Positions 1-6,000 of a stretch of DNA of 6,941 bases are shown here, one piece after another (positions within the stretch are counted from its first letter, which is position 1; each line of letters starts with the position of its first letter). The position numbers were made by a program. Origin of the DNA: a virus (lineage: Duplodnaviria; Heunggongvirae; Uroviricota; Caudoviricetes); the IMG/VR virus record IMGVR_UViG_2695420889_000005, positions 1 through 6,941 of that record, one strand, 5' to 3'.

Positions 1-3000
1 GGAACTGCGCGGCGTAGTCGAAACTCCCCATTCTGATTGCAAAACAAACGGAAGTGCGAAGTTCACCTGCGATCTTCCGGTTTTTGGCGGTGTCAGGAAC
101 ACCGAGGTTTTCTCTGACACGTTTGCCGTTATAGTGAAACCATATGCGGATTGATCCGCCATGGTTTTCAACGCCTGTCGGGTATGATGCGTTACTCATT
201 AAACCTCCCAGACGTCCAGGAGCATTAACAGGTTAACCGGAACTTGCATTTTTGGCACCTGGTTGTTTCTGGTTTTCGATCCAGCGCATAATTTCTTCGA
301 TGTTGTACAGACATTCACTGTAATGCCCCGGATCGCCTTCTACAGCGTAATGGCGGTATTCTTTTCCCTGCATCCATGACTTTCTTCTGGCCCGCTCGAT
401 GGTGCCAGGCTTGAGCCCTGTTGATGCAATGAGGACTCTCTCCGTACACCATTTGCTCGGGGTTATCTGATAGATGATTGTCTGCATGCCAAGCTCCTAA
501 AACGTTTATCCGCGGCAGTGGCACCACACTTCAAACATTCGTCTCACAATTTCGCGACAGTAGAAACCGTCAACATCTCGCGTCAGGTCATAGCGACTGC
601 CATAACGCTGGCGTACCCATAGTTCAAATGCTTTATTCACTCTTCACTTCCTTTTCATGGCGCGTAATTTTTTCAGGTGAGCTTCCTGCTCTGTTTCTGC
701 CAGTATTTGTCGGTATTCCTGGTGATCAATATGTTCAAACTGGTTGTTGAATTCACTGATGCGTACTCGACCGGAGTGTCCGTCCATGCGTCGAAAGAAC
801 ACTGAGTGCTCAGTGCTGCGAGTAATCACCACAGGGTATCCGGCTCTGTCCGTGTATATCTGACCACGTTGAATCAGAGCGAACATTCCTTTATCCCCAG
901 CGGAAAAGCGAATACAGAATAAATGCCACCGCTATTGCAACTCCAACTGCGGTGAATGCTTCAGGCCAATTCATCATTTCACCTCCTGCGGCGGTTCTGG
1001 TAGCTGCATCCAGTGGGTTACCTCTTTGAGATACAGGTCTTCGCCATCACCGTCATCCCAAGTGGGCTTGCCATCATTAAACCAGTCGCCATATACGCCG
1101 ACCTGAGTGTTGGGGATGTTTGGTGGGTAGTTGTTTTTAAAGTCAGCTGCTAACACATAGCATTGTCGCTCTCCCATTTCAGGCATTCGCTCACTACAGC
1201 TTATCCAACCATCCGGAGTTGCCGGATAGTTGCCATTCACAAGGTCAGCTCGAACATATAGCGTGTCATCATGGTGTTGATTGTGGCTGCACCACGTTAA
1301 TTCGCTTAACTCGCCATCTTCTGGCCATACTCCAGCCGTTTGCAGCCAGATATGGGCTGGCGCATCTTGGCAAGGTGTATTAACTGGCAACTTGTAAGTT
1401 TGGCTTACAGGTTCTGCACTATCAGCCTTGCGGCGCTCCTGTAGCTCGCGCAGAGCCGCTACAACATAATGGCTATTGTGCTGGTCAGCCCACAGAATGA
1501 GCCGAATCAACGTTGCATTTGAAACGTATTCGTCTGTTAGTTTGCTATTGGTAAAAGTGGTCATAGCTATTTCACCTTAATCTCAACATTTCGCAGCTTT
1601 AGCTCTACTGGCAGGTCTGACTTTCCTGTTAATGCTAATGCGAGATTTTCTGGAGTAATGAGAACAGTTATTGTTTTCCCCCTCGCCAGACGAATAATCA
1701 TGCGTATCTCGCTATCGTCACATGCTCCTGGTCGAACAATTGAGATTTGTCCGTTCATCTCACTCTCCTTTGATGCGAATGCCAGCGGCGCGCTCGGCTT
1801 CACTTTGTTCCCAAAACCACTTGTGAAGCGCCATAAGCTTTTCGTCAATCGGTGCATATTTGCGATTAAAGTAGGCCTGAGCATCTTTCTCAGATTCGTC
1901 CGGTAATTCGCCAGGGCCAAACAGTGTGTTATAAATCCATGCTAGTCCGCTCTTAGCGTCGCCAGTTGCCTGCCATTCGATAATGGCAGCCTGCATGACC
2001 AGAATGTTTTTCCCGATTAATAGGTCCAGTTCTTTGTACCGGTTGCGGATGTATGCATTCTCGCTTTGTAATTTTGCGTTGCGCTTTTCTGAGGCTTCAA
2101 GTAACGCCTGCTTATCGCGTAGAGCTTCTTCCAGTTCAGCAACATGGCATTCACTATCAATAAGGTTGTTCTCTGCTGCTTCAAGCTCAACACGCAGCTT
2201 CCCAACCGTAAGCGCAATCTCCTCGTTCTCCTGGTCGCGGCGTTTGATGTATTGCTGGTTTCTTTCCCGTTCATCCAGCAGTGCCAAGACGGTAGCCGGA
2301 TTGGCTGCGGCGATGAATTCAGCATTGGCCTGCTGTTCCATTTGGAAATCTTCATCGAAACCGCTTTCAGGATGCGCTCCTTCAATTCTGCAAATGGGAA
2401 TATATCCAGCAGCCTCGCGATGAATTAGTGCATCATCATCATCAAATCGGCCCTCTCCATATTCGAGCGACCACTCGCCACACGTTGCTTTTTCTGCCTT
2501 TTCACGCAGTGCCTGATAGTTGATCTCGCTCATTTTTCTCTTCACTCCGGTATACAAGGATTACTACGCCCCCTCTGCTAATTGCGCGAGCTGGATCCCC
2601 TGGTTCCATGCCGTCAATCCCGAAGGCTTCGAAAAATGCATCCATTGCCTTCTGGCGTTGATCCTGCTTACGGCGTTTATTCCATTTTTTCATGAACAAC
2701 AGTGACAGCCATCGTCCGCTGCAGAACATGATGTAGAAATAACCAAGGAGCGCCAGACCGACATTAAGAGCCGTATCTATGGTTAGTTGTGAGTCAGTCG
2801 CCATCAGACTTTCTTACCTGTTTAAGTAACTGGTTGAACATAACGCTCAGGGGATTGTTGTATCCAAACGGCAGATTGTTTACGCGATACAGAATCATTT
2901 TGTTTTTTTCACCAGTTCGTACAATTAACCCATTCCACAGTAACCGTGATAATTCATTACTGATAGAAACTCCGCTTCTTCCAAGTGCGAGGGATATATC

Positions 3001-6000
3001 TTCTCTACTGCAATCTGGATTTTCCTGGATATATTCGATAACGGTCATGTAGTCCCTTTTAGTTAATAGAGGTTTCTGATTGCATGCTATGAGTATTCAT
3101 TTCGTTAATGATTTCATCCAGAAGGAGCTTAAGGCCTTCTCGACCCATATCTGAAAGAATGAAACCTTTATCAGGGGAAGTGGTGAGCATTTTCTGATAA
3201 AGAAACAGCGCTCTTCCCATTCCCTCAGCTTCGCCATATTTTTGAATTAAATTCCATTCAATATGCTGCTGTAAGGCAAACCGAATGGGGCCAGGGTATA
3301 TAGTCATAACGCCATGCTTCCCGTTATATATTACGGCGCGATCTGTTGTTCCGTGTTCATTCGGGATATCAATAGTGCCATTCTTGTTTTCTTCTTCGTT
3401 GATGAACGTCGTCACGTACAGCCAGCGCCACTGGACTATCTTCATCTCAACAGGGAGTTTTCCCAGTAATCCTGCATTGTCGGCTTGCGCGAGACATTGA
3501 AGGATTTGCAAACCTCTCACATTAGGAGTATCGAATTCTCCAGCATCCAGACGGCGTATAGCGTCGTGATAATCAATCGTCATACTGCCAGTTCGTATAC
3601 CTGTGGCTGTTGCTTCAGCCTGGAATTCAGCGTATTGCATGATATTTACTCCTCATCTTCATCTGCTGGTGCAATAACGTCATATCCTGCCTTTTCTGCA
3701 ATAAACAGGAATGTTGAAAGACTTCCTACAAGTTCATCGTCATGAACATGGCGAATGAATATTACTTTCCCGTTTTTGATGGTCAGCAATACTCTGGTTT
3801 GTTCGTGTTCTGCTGTTTTCTGATGCATTATTATCTCCCGTATGCTTTACGCAGAAATAAGCAGGCAATATGCATGTAATTTTCACCGTGTTGTGCAATA
3901 AGACAGGCTGTTTTGTGTGATGCCTTATGTTTTATAAAAGTCATAATAAAACCTCCTGTGGATTAAGTGTGTGATAATCCCCGGCGATTAAGCCGTAATA
4001 TAGTATCTGGAGATGACTTGTTCTATTTAGCTGGATAGTTCTTTTTCAGCTGCTGCTTCAGCATAGCAACGTGCAAATTCAAGAACTTCATCACCTGTTC
4101 TTTTTATTGCGTCGTTGTCTGACATTTGTAATACGATAACTGCGCATAATAAATTATGGATATTGTTTGCAAAGGAATCCGGTGCCAGGCATAAGCCTTC
4201 ATACTTATCATGGATATTGCCAGTCATTGTTGCTGCTCCTTTGCTTCTGATTTTCCCGTTAACAACCACATCAGGTCACAATTAAGAGCACTGGCCAGTG
4301 GTACTATCTGATCAGCTGGAACTTCATGGATGCCGCATTCCCAGTCGTTTATGGGGTCACTGTAGGTATGAATCATGCGGGCAAGATCAGCTTCAGTTAA
4401 GCCCAGTTTTTTACGGGCGCTTTTGATGCGTGCGCCAATACTTTCCACATGGACTTCAGGCGCATTTACGCGAATAGCTGACTCGCTGTTTTTTTCACTC
4501 AGCAGAGAAAGCGGATCGCATCCCAGGACGTTTGCCAGGGGGATAAGCATGCTGATGGTTGGCTCGAACTCTCCACTCTCCCATTGCAGAATAATCTCTT
4601 CGTCAAGATCGAGTAATTTGGCGAGTTCGGCGGTCGTCAAGCCGCAGGCTTCACGTTGGGTACGGATTTTTCCAAAAAAGTGACTATGCGAAACCATAGC
4701 TTTTGCCTCACATAGTTTTTCTGCAAAAATTGATGCAGTTTCTTCTGTTTTTTGCAGGGAACGCATCAGGCATCTGATTGCATTATAAACCCTCTCACTT
4801 TCTGCTCCGTTTTCTGACATGTAGGAATAGATCATTCCAAGCAGCGAGCCGCCTTCTTGTATTTGTGCTGCAATTTCATCCATCACCTTAACTGCATGCT
4901 TCATATGAGCCTCCTGTTGTTTTAATTTCACAATAGCTAAAGCGTTTGGTTATGTCAATCGCTATAGCTATGCATTTTGAGCAGCAAAGAACAGATTATG
5001 AGAGAAATGAGACGATACGTAGGGAGTTGAGATACAGGAAAGTAGAGCAGCTGCGCAATACAGCTGCCGGTGGTGTTGACTTATCCGACCCTGTTATACT
5101 GGATTGACTGATGAATGAGAACTTTCCCCATTATGAATAGATGTTCTTCAGCTGATTCACTTATAAACCATTCCTTGTAGGCCGGATTGTCTGATATAAC
5201 AGCAAGTTGCATCCCTTGCATTTGCAGGCGTTTGATATGGAAGGTGTGCCCAAAAATAAAAACATAGATACCGTCAGTTTCAAAATTTCTGACGGATACG
5301 TCGACAAACACCTGATCTCCTGCACACAGAGTAGGAGCCATGCTGTCGCCATCAACTGTTATCATCTTTATGATATTTGCTGGCCTGCTACAGAACAGAC
5401 GTCTTGCGGCGTCATGTGAAAATTCTATAGCATGGACCGTTTCTGCAAAATCTGAAACAAGGAATGTTCCTGGTCCCGCGCTGGCAGCGATATCCAGGAC
5501 TTCCACACGAAAAATATCCTTATCATTTTCCAGCGGGGAATATGATACCTGTGGTGTCGGATTGCAGGATGTGCTTTCTTCTGGGGTCATAGGACCAACA
5601 CCGTACGATAGCCACTCGGGGCGCACGTTCAGGGTATTGGCTATCTCCACAACTTTCCTGGAGCCTGTGGCACCATTAACCAGTTTATTTACGCTCGATT
5701 GAGCCATGCCAACCTCTCTGGCCAGTTTTCCCTGCGAGTATCCGCGGATAGTCATAGCTAACTGTAGCCTGTCTGAAAAGCTCATAAGTCCTCCTTTTTC
5801 TGCCCTTTTAGTGTATCGCCTTAGCGATATATACACAAACCGCTTTTCCGCACATTGTAATCGCTTTGATCAATCGCTATAGTGAATGGAATCAGGTTGG
5901 AGGTCGATATGAAAAATGAAGGTATAGCCAAGGCTGTAGATATTGCGGGAAGCCAGATTGCTCTGGCTAGGCGTTGTGGTCGCGCGCAGTCAACAATTTG

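What the first reader, a model, noticed from the sequence alone, without database searches (positions are those of the whole stretch)
2502..3048. Winged-helix regulator followed by an overlapping single-pass membrane protein
An 84-aa wHTH protein is followed by a 100-aa ORF whose start overlaps its stop by 11 nt. The second ORF has one N-terminal transmembrane helix and a highly basic juxtamembrane segment, and its 3' end overlaps the Ea22-like start by about 32 nt in another frame. A DNA-binding protein paired with a membrane protein could be a small exclusion or signalling module. Alternatively the membrane ORF may be a frame artefact.
Basis: partly seen in the sequence, partly recalled or inferred. 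Interest (0 to 1): 0.45.

Follow-up and report, generated by a model that had tools for sequence, protein, structure and literature searches.

The report
Two unlinked prophage accessory genes
The two overlapping small genes are real and already catalogued: a minimal winged-helix protein and a DUF4752 membrane-anchored protein that lie side by side in the early-left operon of a lambda-like E. coli prophage, but they occur separately in other phages, so they are ordinary accessory genes and not a dedicated two-part module.

Summary
On the minus strand, an 84-aa gene (3048..2794) overlaps a 100-aa gene (2804..2502) by 11 nt. The 100-aa gene overlaps the ATG of an Ead/Ea22-like gene (2533) by 32 nt.

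The 100-aa ORF is not a frame artefact.
- It matches Pfam DUF4752 (PF15944) at 132.8 bits.
- It is under purifying selection (dN/dS 0.2-0.37).
- It has 25-50% identical relatives in P22-like, epsilon15-like, N15-like, P1-like, Klebsiella and Erwinia phages.
- All relatives share one N-terminal hydrophobic helix, a basic stretch and a short helix/beta-hairpin tail.

The 84-aa protein models as a minimal winged helix. It fails the Pfam MarR thresholds and lacks MarR dimerisation helices.

The "module" reading is not supported.
- DUF4752 is in 855 of 5426 complete E. coli genomes; this wHTH is in 139.
- Upstream of DUF4752 the neighbour is the wHTH, a TraR/Orf73 protein, a DUF4406 protein or something else.
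- wHTH pseudogenes sit next to intact DUF4752 genes. DUF4752 deletions sit next to truncated wHTH genes (codons 1-73 kept).
- A 43% identical wHTH in phage P88 has no DUF4752 nearby.

Both proteins are 100% identical to annotated RefSeq proteins. Their functions remain unknown. Interest is low.

The parts
2794..3048 (-). 84-aa stand-alone winged-helix (wHTH) protein with a C-terminal helix. It is identical to RefSeq WP_000215935.1 and to GenBank BCI49044.1, which is annotated as 'MarR family transcriptional regulator'.
   Evidence: ORF. PHROG phrog_1687 at E 1.4e-24. Pfam MarR_2, HTH_Crp_2 and HTH_24 match only below their cut-offs. AF2 topology is H3-9, H15-22, H26-38, E42-44, E50-53, H66-83, with pLDDT about 80 over the first 40 residues. 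Foldseek top hits are MarR, MepR, DtxR and Z-alpha winged helices. dN/dS is 0.11-0.32.
2502..2804 (-). 100-aa DUF4752 (PF15944) protein. Hydrophobic helix at about residues 9-37, basic stretch at 38-55, short helix plus beta-hairpin at 56-90, and a lineage-specific tail at about 93-100. Identical to RefSeq WP_000179799.1.
   Evidence: Pfam 132.8 bits against a cut-off of 27. phrog_667 at E 6e-42. Alignments A1 and A2. AF2 gives a helix at 3-61 and a hairpin at 72-85, mean pLDDT 71. Hydrophobicity and charge. dN/dS.
2794..2804 (-). 11-nt stop/start overlap between the wHTH and DUF4752 genes (GATGGCGACTGA). This is a likely site of translational coupling, because the Shine-Dalgarno match before the ATG is weak (AAGAAAG).
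   Evidence: Read directly from the sequence. The same junction is conserved in the intact wHTH+DUF4752 loci listed. An 82-aa allele with a 7-nt deletion keeps an 11-nt overlap.
2502..2533 (-). 32-nt overlap between the DUF4752 3' end and the Ead/Ea22-like start. The conserved DUF4752 C-terminal coding sequence carries the ribosome-binding site and ATG of the next gene.
   Evidence: The DUF4752 length varies (94, 100 or 105 aa) according to which downstream 5' end is attached.
1760..2533 (-). Ead/Ea22-like protein of 257 aa counted from the ATG at 2533. The alternative TTG at 2557 would add 8 residues.
   Evidence: Pfam PF13935 at 117.2 bits; profile position 1 aligns to residue 10 of the TTG-started ORF, the residue after the Met at 2533. 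PGAP annotates the equivalent start.
3059..3640 (-). 193-aa protein of unknown function (phrog_1515), the upstream neighbour in the same operon. It accompanies the wHTH in the related loci that were inspected.
4930..4958 (-). Sigma-70-like promoter match (TTGACA-17-TATTGT, 10 of 12) at the head of the leftward gene string. It is a candidate early-left promoter for the whole operon that contains both genes.
   Evidence: This is a consensus match only, and the number of such matches in the region is not above the shuffled expectation.

Best explanation
The stretch holds two separate, individually conserved accessory genes in the leftward early operon of a lambdoid (Stx-phage-like) E. coli prophage. 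The operon runs from the repressor region towards xis. The two genes are packed stop-over-start, like their neighbours.

Gene 1 encodes a minimal winged-helix protein of 84 aa. It most likely binds nucleic acid or a partner protein through the winged helix. It is not a canonical MarR dimer.

Gene 2 encodes a DUF4752 protein. Its most likely form is a bitopic inner-membrane protein with about 8-10 residues outside. A lysine/arginine-rich helix would lie at the cytoplasmic face, followed by a helix/beta-hairpin domain of about 35 aa in the cytoplasm (N-out, C-in by the positive-inside rule). I infer that it acts at the membrane on a host or phage target early after induction or infection.

The 11-nt overlap probably couples translation of DUF4752 to that of the wHTH gene. 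The conserved 3' end of DUF4752 in turn carries the start signals of the Ea22-like gene. The adjacency comes from mosaic recombination at gene boundaries, not from a functional requirement.

Shown here: the gene reality, the family membership, the wHTH fold, the conserved hydrophobic and basic architecture, and the independent distribution. Inferred: membrane insertion and topology, translational coupling, and any biochemical role.
For: Context: xis, DUF4222, DUF551, Ea22, DUF4752, wHTH, phrog_1515, HTH regulators, a CI/LexA-like repressor, and cro-like and Rha genes. The stretch is 99.1% identical to Stx1a phages and to an O145:H28 prophage.

Gene reality: PF15944 at E 4.5e-39, dN/dS 0.2-0.37, and wHTH dN/dS 0.11-0.32.

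Independence of the two genes:
- Among 85 DUF4752 loci, the upstream gene is the wHTH in 44, TraR/Orf73-type in 24, DUF4406 in 13 and something else in 4.
- The DUF4752 gene is found in 855 of 5426 complete E. coli genomes (1013 places, 200 of them on plasmids). The wHTH gene is found in 139 genomes (141 places).
- Distant DUF4752 members sit in other operon positions with other neighbours: the ST64T nin region, HK106, D6, SPN1S, Klebsiella, Erwinia and N15-like phages.
- A 43% identical wHTH in the P2-like phage P88 is followed directly by an Ea22-like gene, with no DUF4752.
- Some wHTH alleles carry a stop at codon 8 or a frameshift while the DUF4752 gene beside them is intact. In L141 the DUF4752 gene is visibly deleted, leaving only a 3' remnant; six further loci show the same tblastn pattern (wHTH match ending at residue 73, no DUF4752 match) but were not inspected.

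Architecture. wHTH fold. No promoter or terminator match lies between the two genes.
Against: Close relatives of this particular wHTH (82% identity or more) are almost always found directly upstream of a DUF4752 gene or its remnant. That holds for 46 of 55 loci, and 7 more lack any DUF4752 match (a deletion remnant was seen in the one inspected). They are paired with DUF4752 alleles of 92%, 69% and 57% identity. This one-sided linkage could reflect a functional dependence of the wHTH on DUF4752, and not only recent shared ancestry.

Membrane insertion is predicted, not demonstrated. The Kyte-Doolittle mean (1.55) and a crude Hessa sum (+2.5 kcal/mol) are borderline. The AF2 models are only moderately confident, with pLDDT of 71 and 67. 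No function is known for either family. No held paper mentions DUF4752, PF15944 or the RefSeq accessions searched.
Confidence: 0.7

Rival explanations
1. The wHTH and DUF4752 proteins form a functional two-gene module. In one version the membrane protein tethers or senses and the wHTH regulates, giving an exclusion or signalling module. In another version they form a toxin-antitoxin-like pair, with a DNA-binding antitoxin upstream of a small membrane toxin.
For: The stop/start overlap of 11 nt is conserved in the intact wHTH+DUF4752 loci. This wHTH lineage is nearly always next to DUF4752 or its remnant, including with diverged DUF4752 alleles.
Against: More than 85% of DUF4752 copies in complete E. 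coli genomes lack this wHTH. Other upstream genes (TraR/Orf73, DUF4406) take its place with similar overlaps. Intact DUF4752 genes persist next to wHTH pseudogenes, which argues against an antitoxin role. Distant homologues of each gene occur without the other. DUF4752 has no PADLOC defence-model hit. Only about 8-10 residues would lie outside the membrane, which is too few for a sensor domain.
Confidence: 0.1
2. The 100-aa ORF is a frame artefact. On this view it is not translated, and the Ea22-like gene starts at TTG 2557.
For: The overlaps at both ends and the weak Shine-Dalgarno match before ATG 2804.
Against: There is a full-length Pfam DUF4752 match at 132.8 bits. Sixty-two clusters at 50% identity are detectable by HMMER. 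Homologues 25-50% identical occur in unrelated phage backbones. dN/dS is 0.2-0.37. The variable sites in 2534-2557 are silent in the DUF4752 frame and replacement changes in the extended Ea22 frame. PGAP and GenBank both annotate the gene.
Confidence: 0.02
3. DUF4752 is not membrane-inserted. On this view its hydrophobic N-terminal helix is an oligomerisation or peripheral membrane-binding helix of a soluble small protein.
For: The hydrophobicity is borderline on the Kyte-Doolittle and Hessa scales. A conserved G-(R/Q)-W lies inside the hydrophobic stretch. AF2 draws a single continuous 59-residue helix.
Against: The Wimley-White octanol score is -6.7 to -14.3 kcal/mol in all ten diverged members, against -3.7 at best for other proteins in the window. 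The charge asymmetry (-2 on the N side, +5/+6 on the C side) fits the positive-inside rule. Aromatic residues flank the segment, as in typical transmembrane helices.
Confidence: 0.18

Closest known systems
Pfam PF15944 (DUF4752) / PHROG phrog_667. Examples are RefSeq WP_000179799.1, VT2-Sakai and 933W-type Stx phage genes between orf73 and ea22, Salmonella phage ST64T Orf-90, and phage D6 orf94.
   Same: The window protein is a full-length member and is identical to WP_000179799.1. It has the same length class, the same hydrophobic helix, the same KRRKQ-type basic stretch and the same FYDAFEL...EPG...G-hairpin tail.
   Different: The only differences are the 'MAT' N-terminus that goes with the wHTH junction and a tail of about 8 residues (about 93-100). 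The tail is read-through into the Ea22 5' end and is absent from other alleles.
MarR-family winged-helix regulators (for example MepR 3eco, OhrR 2pex, MarR 2fa5)
   Same: The winged-helix core has the H1-S1-H2-H3-S2-wing-S3 topology. These are the best Foldseek matches, and databases label the homologues 'MarR family'.
   Different: The protein is 84 aa, against about 140-150 aa. The wHTH starts at residue 3, so the N-terminal dimerisation helix is missing. The Pfam MarR_2 score of 18.8 is below the cut-off of 27. No PDB sequence match is better than E 0.06.
[quoted passage not shown]
   Same: The position is the same: the pL-transcribed, non-essential region upstream of xis, next to an Ea22-like gene. 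In Sakai/933W-type phages DUF4752 sits between the TraR-like orf73 and ea22. Another wHTH protein (phi24B Gp05) has been modelled in that region.
   Different: This prophage lacks the orf60a-orf63-orf61-orf73 block. A phrog_1515 gene and the wHTH occupy the place of orf73. The sections of that review examined here (targeted word searches and section 5.2) do not mention the DUF4752 gene.
Small phage-encoded inner-membrane proteins with exclusion or host-takeover roles (HK97 gp15, P22 SieA/SieB, T4 Imm). This comparison rests on my own knowledge.
   Same: It is a small membrane-anchored protein encoded by a non-essential gene of a temperate phage.
   Different: No sequence or profile similarity was detected: PADLOC gives nothing, PHROG lists the function as unknown, and Foldseek gives nothing. 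The location is also different, in an early lytic operon, whereas those genes are lysogen-expressed morons. No phenotype is known.

Membership tests
DUF4752 (Pfam PF15944) | Whole-protein HMM score at or above the Pfam gathering threshold (27 bits), matching the profile end to end | tested here: met
   132.8 bits, E 4.5e-39; residues 8-90 match profile positions 2-84 of 84.
DUF4752 (Pfam PF15944) | Small stand-alone protein of about 85-105 aa encoded by enterobacterial temperate phages and prophages | tested here: met
   100 aa. Homologues of 85-108 aa occur in E. coli, Salmonella, Klebsiella, Erwinia and Pseudocitrobacter phages and prophages.
MarR family transcriptional regulators | Pfam MarR or MarR_2 score above the gathering threshold | tested here: not met
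   MarR_2 scores 18.8 bits against a cut-off of 27. HTH_24 scores 14.8 against 21.9.
MarR family transcriptional regulators | Subunit of about 140-150 aa in which N- and C-terminal helices flank the wHTH and form the dimer interface | tested here: not met
   The protein is 84 aa. The wHTH spans residues 3-53 and only one C-terminal helix (66-83, low confidence) follows. Foldseek alignments cover only part of each MarR target (TM-score normalised by target 0.32-0.38).
Winged-helix (wHTH) fold | H1-S1-H2-H3-S2-wing-S3 topology that superposes on solved winged helices | tested here: met
   AF2 secondary structure. The core of 51-60 residues aligns to DtxR, Z-alpha, Z-beta and Fur6 winged helices at 1.3-2.8 A with probability 1.00, although the E-values are only about 1e-2 to 1e-3.
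Obligate two-gene module (type II toxin-antitoxin-like, or regulator plus membrane-partner cassette) | The two genes co-occur as a unit wherever either one is found | tested here: not met
   DUF4752 is in 855 genomes and the wHTH in 139. Four or more different upstream neighbours were found. P88 has the wHTH without DUF4752. wHTH pseudogenes lie beside intact DUF4752 genes, and DUF4752 deletions lie beside wHTH genes truncated at codon 73.
BlaI/BlaR1- or MecI/MecR1-type wHTH repressor plus membrane sensor | The membrane partner carries an extracytoplasmic sensor domain and a cytoplasmic zinc-protease domain | tested here: not met
   DUF4752 is 100 aa, with at most about 10 residues before the hydrophobic helix and no protease or sensor domain hit.
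Known anti-phage defence or superinfection-exclusion proteins | Match to a defence-system HMM or a PHROG exclusion family | tested here: not met
   DUF4752 has no PADLOC hit, and phrog_667 is listed as 'unknown function'. The wHTH has only weak wHTH-domain hits (CARF/CasR C-terminal domains, Ren-like phrog_142 at E 1e-4).
Bitopic inner-membrane protein (N-out, C-in) | Experimentally verified membrane insertion and topology | not testable with these tools
   There are predictions only: the hydrophobic window and the positive-inside charge bias. No TMHMM or DeepTMHMM was available.
Ead/Ea22-like (Pfam PF13935), the downstream gene | HMM score above the gathering threshold, with the family N-terminus at the annotated start | tested here: met
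   117.2 bits against 27. Profile position 1 aligns to residue 10 of the TTG-started ORF, the residue after the Met encoded at 2533.

The most novel reading that the evidence does not exclude
The one-sided linkage could reflect a real partnership. This wHTH lineage is always next to DUF4752 or its remnant, even with DUF4752 alleles only 57-69% identical. DUF4752 would then be a membrane anchor whose cytoplasmic helix/hairpin domain captures or releases small regulators encoded just upstream: the wHTH here, and TraR/Orf73 in Sakai-type phages. That would be a membrane-sequestration switch acting on the lysis-lysogeny decision. Alternatively, DUF4752 alone could be a previously unrecognised early-expressed exclusion or host-takeover factor.
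Probability: 0.08. Interest if true: 0.5.

Novelty: already known. Interest (0 to 1): 0.15.

Why it matters
It matters little for discovery. Both proteins are identical to annotated RefSeq and GenBank entries and belong to catalogued families of unknown function. Their adjacency is a by-product of lambdoid mosaicism.

The useful outcomes are practical:
- The DUF4752 frame and the Ea22 start at 2533 can be trusted.
- The 'MarR family' label on the 84-aa protein overstates what is known.
- In the one assembly inspected (Ecol_AZ146) an intact wHTH ORF is left unannotated. The hit table lists no wHTH feature under the match for most rows of the 90-95% identity class (124 records), so the omission may be common.
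- DUF4752 is widespread, present in about 16% of complete E. coli genomes, many of them Stx prophage carriers. It is a completely uncharacterised small putative membrane protein of the exo-xis/nin accessory regions. It would be a reasonable target for a systematic phenotype screen.

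Tried and rejected
- Literature: searches for DUF4752, PF15944 and the RefSeq accessions found no paper. The exo-xis papers were searched for related terms, with nothing on this gene in what was returned.
- Foldseek of the DUF4752 model against the PDB gave no match better than E 3.6, so it is uninformative.
- An HMM profile of the diverged DUF4752 alignment against PDB sequences gave only a chance-level FtsZ-tail match (E 1.3).
- phmmer of the wHTH against the PDB gave nothing significant.
- PADLOC and NCBIfam gave no hit for DUF4752.
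- The exhaustive HMMER search found only 62 clusters. The two long hits (P0099, P0123) are repetitive proteins that score by summed repeats. Several hits of about 100 aa are chimeras that carry only the C-terminal half. None adds a functional clue.
- I tested whether the small membrane protein two genes downstream of the P88 wHTH is a cryptic DUF4752. It is not (hhalign probability 0.3%).
- I tested whether the 'MarR' gene three genes downstream of DUF4752 in Erwinia phage Midgardsormr38 is the same wHTH. It shows only a weak 25% match over the C-terminal 51 residues and is not adjacent, so it was not counted as co-occurrence.
- The promoter/terminator scan gave nothing between the two genes and no enrichment over shuffles.
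- The species-level genome collection returned only 4 loci. Three are short contigs assigned to non-enteric organisms (Xanthomonas, Trinickia, an actinomycete MAG), which look like contamination or misassignment. It added only the Pseudocitrobacter homologue.

Full report
**1. What is in the sequence**

All relevant genes lie on the minus strand.
- An 84-aa ORF runs 3048..2794.
- A 100-aa ORF runs 2804..2502. The two share 11 nt (GATGGCGACTGA).
- The next gene is Ead/Ea22-like. It has an ATG at 2533, which is 32 nt inside the 100-aa ORF and in a different frame. An in-frame TTG lies at 2557.

The same three genes with the same overlaps are annotated by PGAP in E. coli O145:H28 12E115 as WP_000215935.1, WP_000179799.1 and WP_001289911.1. 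They are also annotated in Stx1a phage Stx1_14040. The stretch is 99.1% identical to both, and tblastn gives 100% identity for both window proteins.

**2. Context**

The window is the immunity and early-left end of a lambdoid prophage. From left to right on the plus strand it carries:
- an excisionase (233..487), DUF4222, DUF551 and a 63-aa phrog_1222 gene
- Ea22-like, DUF4752 and the wHTH
- a 193-aa phrog_1515 gene, a 60-aa phrog_340 gene, small ORFs and a 235-aa double-HTH protein
- a CI/LexA-like repressor (5081..5836)
- then, on the plus strand, a cro-like gene and a Rha-family gene

The leftward genes abut or overlap throughout. The best promoter-like match on that strand is at 4958..4930, ahead of the 235-aa gene. 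No promoter or terminator match separates the wHTH and DUF4752 genes. The overlap is therefore ordinary operon packing.

**3. The 100-aa ORF is a real gene**

- It matches Pfam DUF4752 (PF15944) end to end at 132.8 bits, E 4.5e-39, and PHROG phrog_667 at E 6e-42.
- Sixteen distinct nucleotide alleles were recovered from related loci. The twelve with measurable divergence give dN/dS of 0.20-0.37 against the window allele, with dS up to 1.08.
- tblastn finds homologues 25-50% identical in phages with unrelated backbones. These are Salmonella ST64T (Orf-90, in the nin region after gene 12), HK106 (between the recombination genes and xis) and the P1-like plasmid prophage D6. The epsilon15-like SPN1S, an N15-like Ravinvirus, Klebsiella phages and Erwinia phage Midgardsormr38 also carry one.
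- An exhaustive HMMER pass over 1.84 billion cluster representatives finds only 62 clusters. Most full-length matches are proteins of about 80-110 aa; many of the rest are shorter fragments. This is a small family confined to enterobacterial phages.

**4. Architecture of DUF4752**

The alignment of ten diverged members shows three parts.
- A hydrophobic, aromatic-rich segment: ...LN.GLALLGW.YIM...G(Q/R)W....
- A basic stretch: K(Q/K)W.KRRKQ..RQKA.
- A tail: FYDAFEL...EPG.T.RIATKGDL.I.MFR.E.

In the window protein the best 19-residue window scores -11.7 kcal/mol on the Wimley-White octanol scale. The best value for any other protein in the window is -3.7, and all ten family members fall between -6.7 and -14.3 (scale values recalled from memory). 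The Kyte-Doolittle mean is 1.55, which is borderline. The flanking charges are -2 on the N side and +5 to +6 on the C side. This fits an N-out/C-in bitopic topology under the positive-inside rule.

AF2 (pLDDT 71) draws one long helix (3-61) and a beta-hairpin (72-85). Foldseek and PDB-sequence searches give nothing meaningful.

Residues from about 93 onward are not conserved. The tail is 94, 100 or 105 aa long according to which downstream 5' end is attached. Allele P0019 combines the window-type N-terminal half (48 of 52 residues identical) with a D6-type C-terminal half. This suggests a recombination joint at about RQKA, between two sub-domains.

**5. The Ea22 start**

In the loci with an Ea22-type (or MTITKQ-type) downstream gene, the frame upstream of the downstream ATG is closed by stops just before the TTG. 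The only two variable sites between the TTG and the ATG (TAT/TAC and AGT/AGC) are silent in the DUF4752 frame. In the TTG-extended frame they change I/T and V/A. The Pfam Ead_Ea22 match begins at the residue after the Met encoded at 2533. Both observations favour ATG 2533 and translation of the overlapping DUF4752 frame.

**6. The 84-aa protein**

- Pfam gives only sub-threshold hits (MarR_2 18.8 bits against 27; HTH_Crp_2; HTH_24). PHROG phrog_1687 ('MarR family') matches at E 1.4e-24, but only over the C-terminal half of that profile.
- AF2 gives a canonical winged-helix topology from residue 3 to 53 (pLDDT about 80), followed by a low-confidence C-terminal helix.
- The Foldseek top hits are overwhelmingly winged-helix domains (MarR, MepR, CouR, OhrR, DtxR/IdeR, Z-alpha/Z-beta, Csa3). 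The core superposes at 1.3-2.8 A, but the E-values are modest, about 1e-2 to 1e-3.
- dN/dS is 0.11-0.32.

It is a winged-helix protein. At 84 aa it has no N-terminal dimerisation helix, so it does not meet the defining features of the MarR family.

**7. Is it a pair?**

Evidence against a pair:
- Among 85 DUF4752 loci, biased towards close relatives, the upstream gene is the wHTH in 44, a TraR/DksA-type zinc finger in 24, DUF4406 in 13 and something else in 4. The zinc finger is the orf73 type of lambda and Stx phages, per PMC8614690 and PMC9239242.
- In 5426 complete E. coli genomes the DUF4752 coding sequence is found in 855 genomes (1013 places, 200 of them on plasmids). The wHTH coding sequence is found in 139 genomes (141 places).
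- The TraR-preceded alleles start with GTG behind a good Shine-Dalgarno sequence and use a 4-nt overlap.
- Decay goes both ways. One wHTH allele has a stop at codon 8 and two are frameshifted, all upstream of intact DUF4752 genes. Two loci keep only a 3' wHTH remnant before an intact DUF4752. In L141 most of DUF4752 and the last wHTH codons are deleted, leaving '...VIVMFRQERAEKGESA'. Six more loci show the same tblastn pattern but were not inspected.
- A 43% identical wHTH in the P2-like phage P88 is followed directly by an Ea22-like gene. The small membrane protein further down is unrelated to DUF4752.

Evidence for some linkage:
- When loci are selected through the wHTH, 46 of 55 have DUF4752 immediately downstream. 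Three of these carry DUF4752 alleles only 57-69% identical to the window's. Within E. coli lambdoid prophages this wHTH lineage has therefore not been seen without DUF4752 or its remnant.
- That pattern is compatible with recent common ancestry plus recombination inside DUF4752. It keeps a small probability alive for a functional tie.

**8. Interpretation**

The best-supported reading is two independent accessory genes of the early-left operon, joined by mosaic recombination at gene boundaries and probably translationally coupled.

DUF4752 most likely inserts as an N-out/C-in anchor. It would present a basic helix and a small helix/hairpin domain at the cytoplasmic face of the inner membrane. 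What it binds there is unknown. The wHTH is a small nucleic-acid-binding or protein-binding regulator of unknown target.

A toxin-antitoxin or sensor-regulator module is disfavoured by the distribution and by the near absence of extracytoplasmic residues. No defence-system model matches DUF4752, and no held paper mentions the family.

**9. Verdict**

Both genes are already annotated members of catalogued families, so novelty is nil and interest is low. The only residual value is that DUF4752 is a common, wholly uncharacterised small putative membrane protein of Stx and other temperate enterobacterial phages.

Noticed in passing
window 1760-2200 (- strand; C-terminal part of the Ea22-like protein, residues 146-244): The C-terminal 100 residues of the Ea22-like protein match the PADLOC model 'DpdH' (PDLC02890) at E 1.2e-36. 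The Pfam Ead_Ea22 match covers only the N-terminal 150 residues. Either the Ea22 C-terminal module is shared with a Dpd-system-associated protein, or that PADLOC model was built from prophage genes.
   Followed up: no
L096 2491-2781 (E. coli Ecol_AZ146, NZ_CP018991.1); possibly many of the 124 records in the 90-95% identity band: The wHTH ORF is intact (82 aa from MTVIEY, or 96 aa from an upstream ATG) but PGAP does not annotate it in the one assembly inspected. A gap is left between the DUF4752 gene and the phrog_1515 gene. In the hit table, most listed rows of the 90-95% identity class show no wHTH feature under the match.
   Followed up: partly
L141 2111-2269, and by tblastn pattern only L139-L145 (IMG/VR contigs): In L141 a deletion has fused the 3' end of the wHTH gene (truncated after residue 73) to the last 16 or so codons of a P0019-type DUF4752 gene. 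This is a natural DUF4752 knock-out in otherwise similar prophages. The other six loci show the same tblastn pattern but their sequences were not inspected.
   Followed up: partly
DUF4752 alleles P0019/P0022 compared with window 2502-2804 and D6 orf94 (L091 2501-2773): The gene is an intragenic mosaic. The N-terminal 52 residues of P0019 are 92% identical to the window protein. Residues 53-96 are nearly identical to the D6 and N15-like alleles. This implies a recombination joint at about RQKA, between the membrane/basic half and the C-terminal domain.
   Followed up: partly
window 4224-4931 (- strand): A 235-aa protein with two HTH_3 (Cro/C1-type) domains lies immediately downstream of the best sigma-70-like promoter match (4958..4930) and next to the CI/LexA-like repressor gene. 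PHROG calls it a 'CII-like regulator' (phrog_4836). It is an unusual first gene for an early-left operon, where an N-type antiterminator would be expected in lambda.
   Followed up: no
window 1567-1920 (- strand): The 117-aa ORF listed from a TTG is probably a 63-aa gene that starts at the ATG at 1758. phrog_1222 matches residues 55-117 end to end. That start lies 1 nt after the Ea22-like stop codon.
   Followed up: no
L002 1011-2207 (E. coli O145:H28 12E115 prophage): An IS110-family ISEc20 element is inserted in the otherwise near-identical prophage, between the DUF551 gene and the genes downstream of Ea22. The Ea22-like gene there is also split into two annotated ORFs.
   Followed up: no
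L084, L085, L087 (Xanthomonas pisi, Trinickia soli and actinomycete MAG contigs): Very short contigs (384-3228 nt) from non-enteric assemblies carry E. coli-type DUF4752 sequences, up to 92% identical. These are most likely contamination or mis-binning in those assemblies.
   Followed up: no
P0061 and L061-L071 (DUF4406 upstream neighbour): In one allele class the DUF4406 (PF14359) gene and the DUF4752 gene are read as a single 169-aa fusion protein (P0061) whose DUF4752 part is then frameshifted. This is probably a sequencing or decay artefact, not a true fusion.
   Followed up: no
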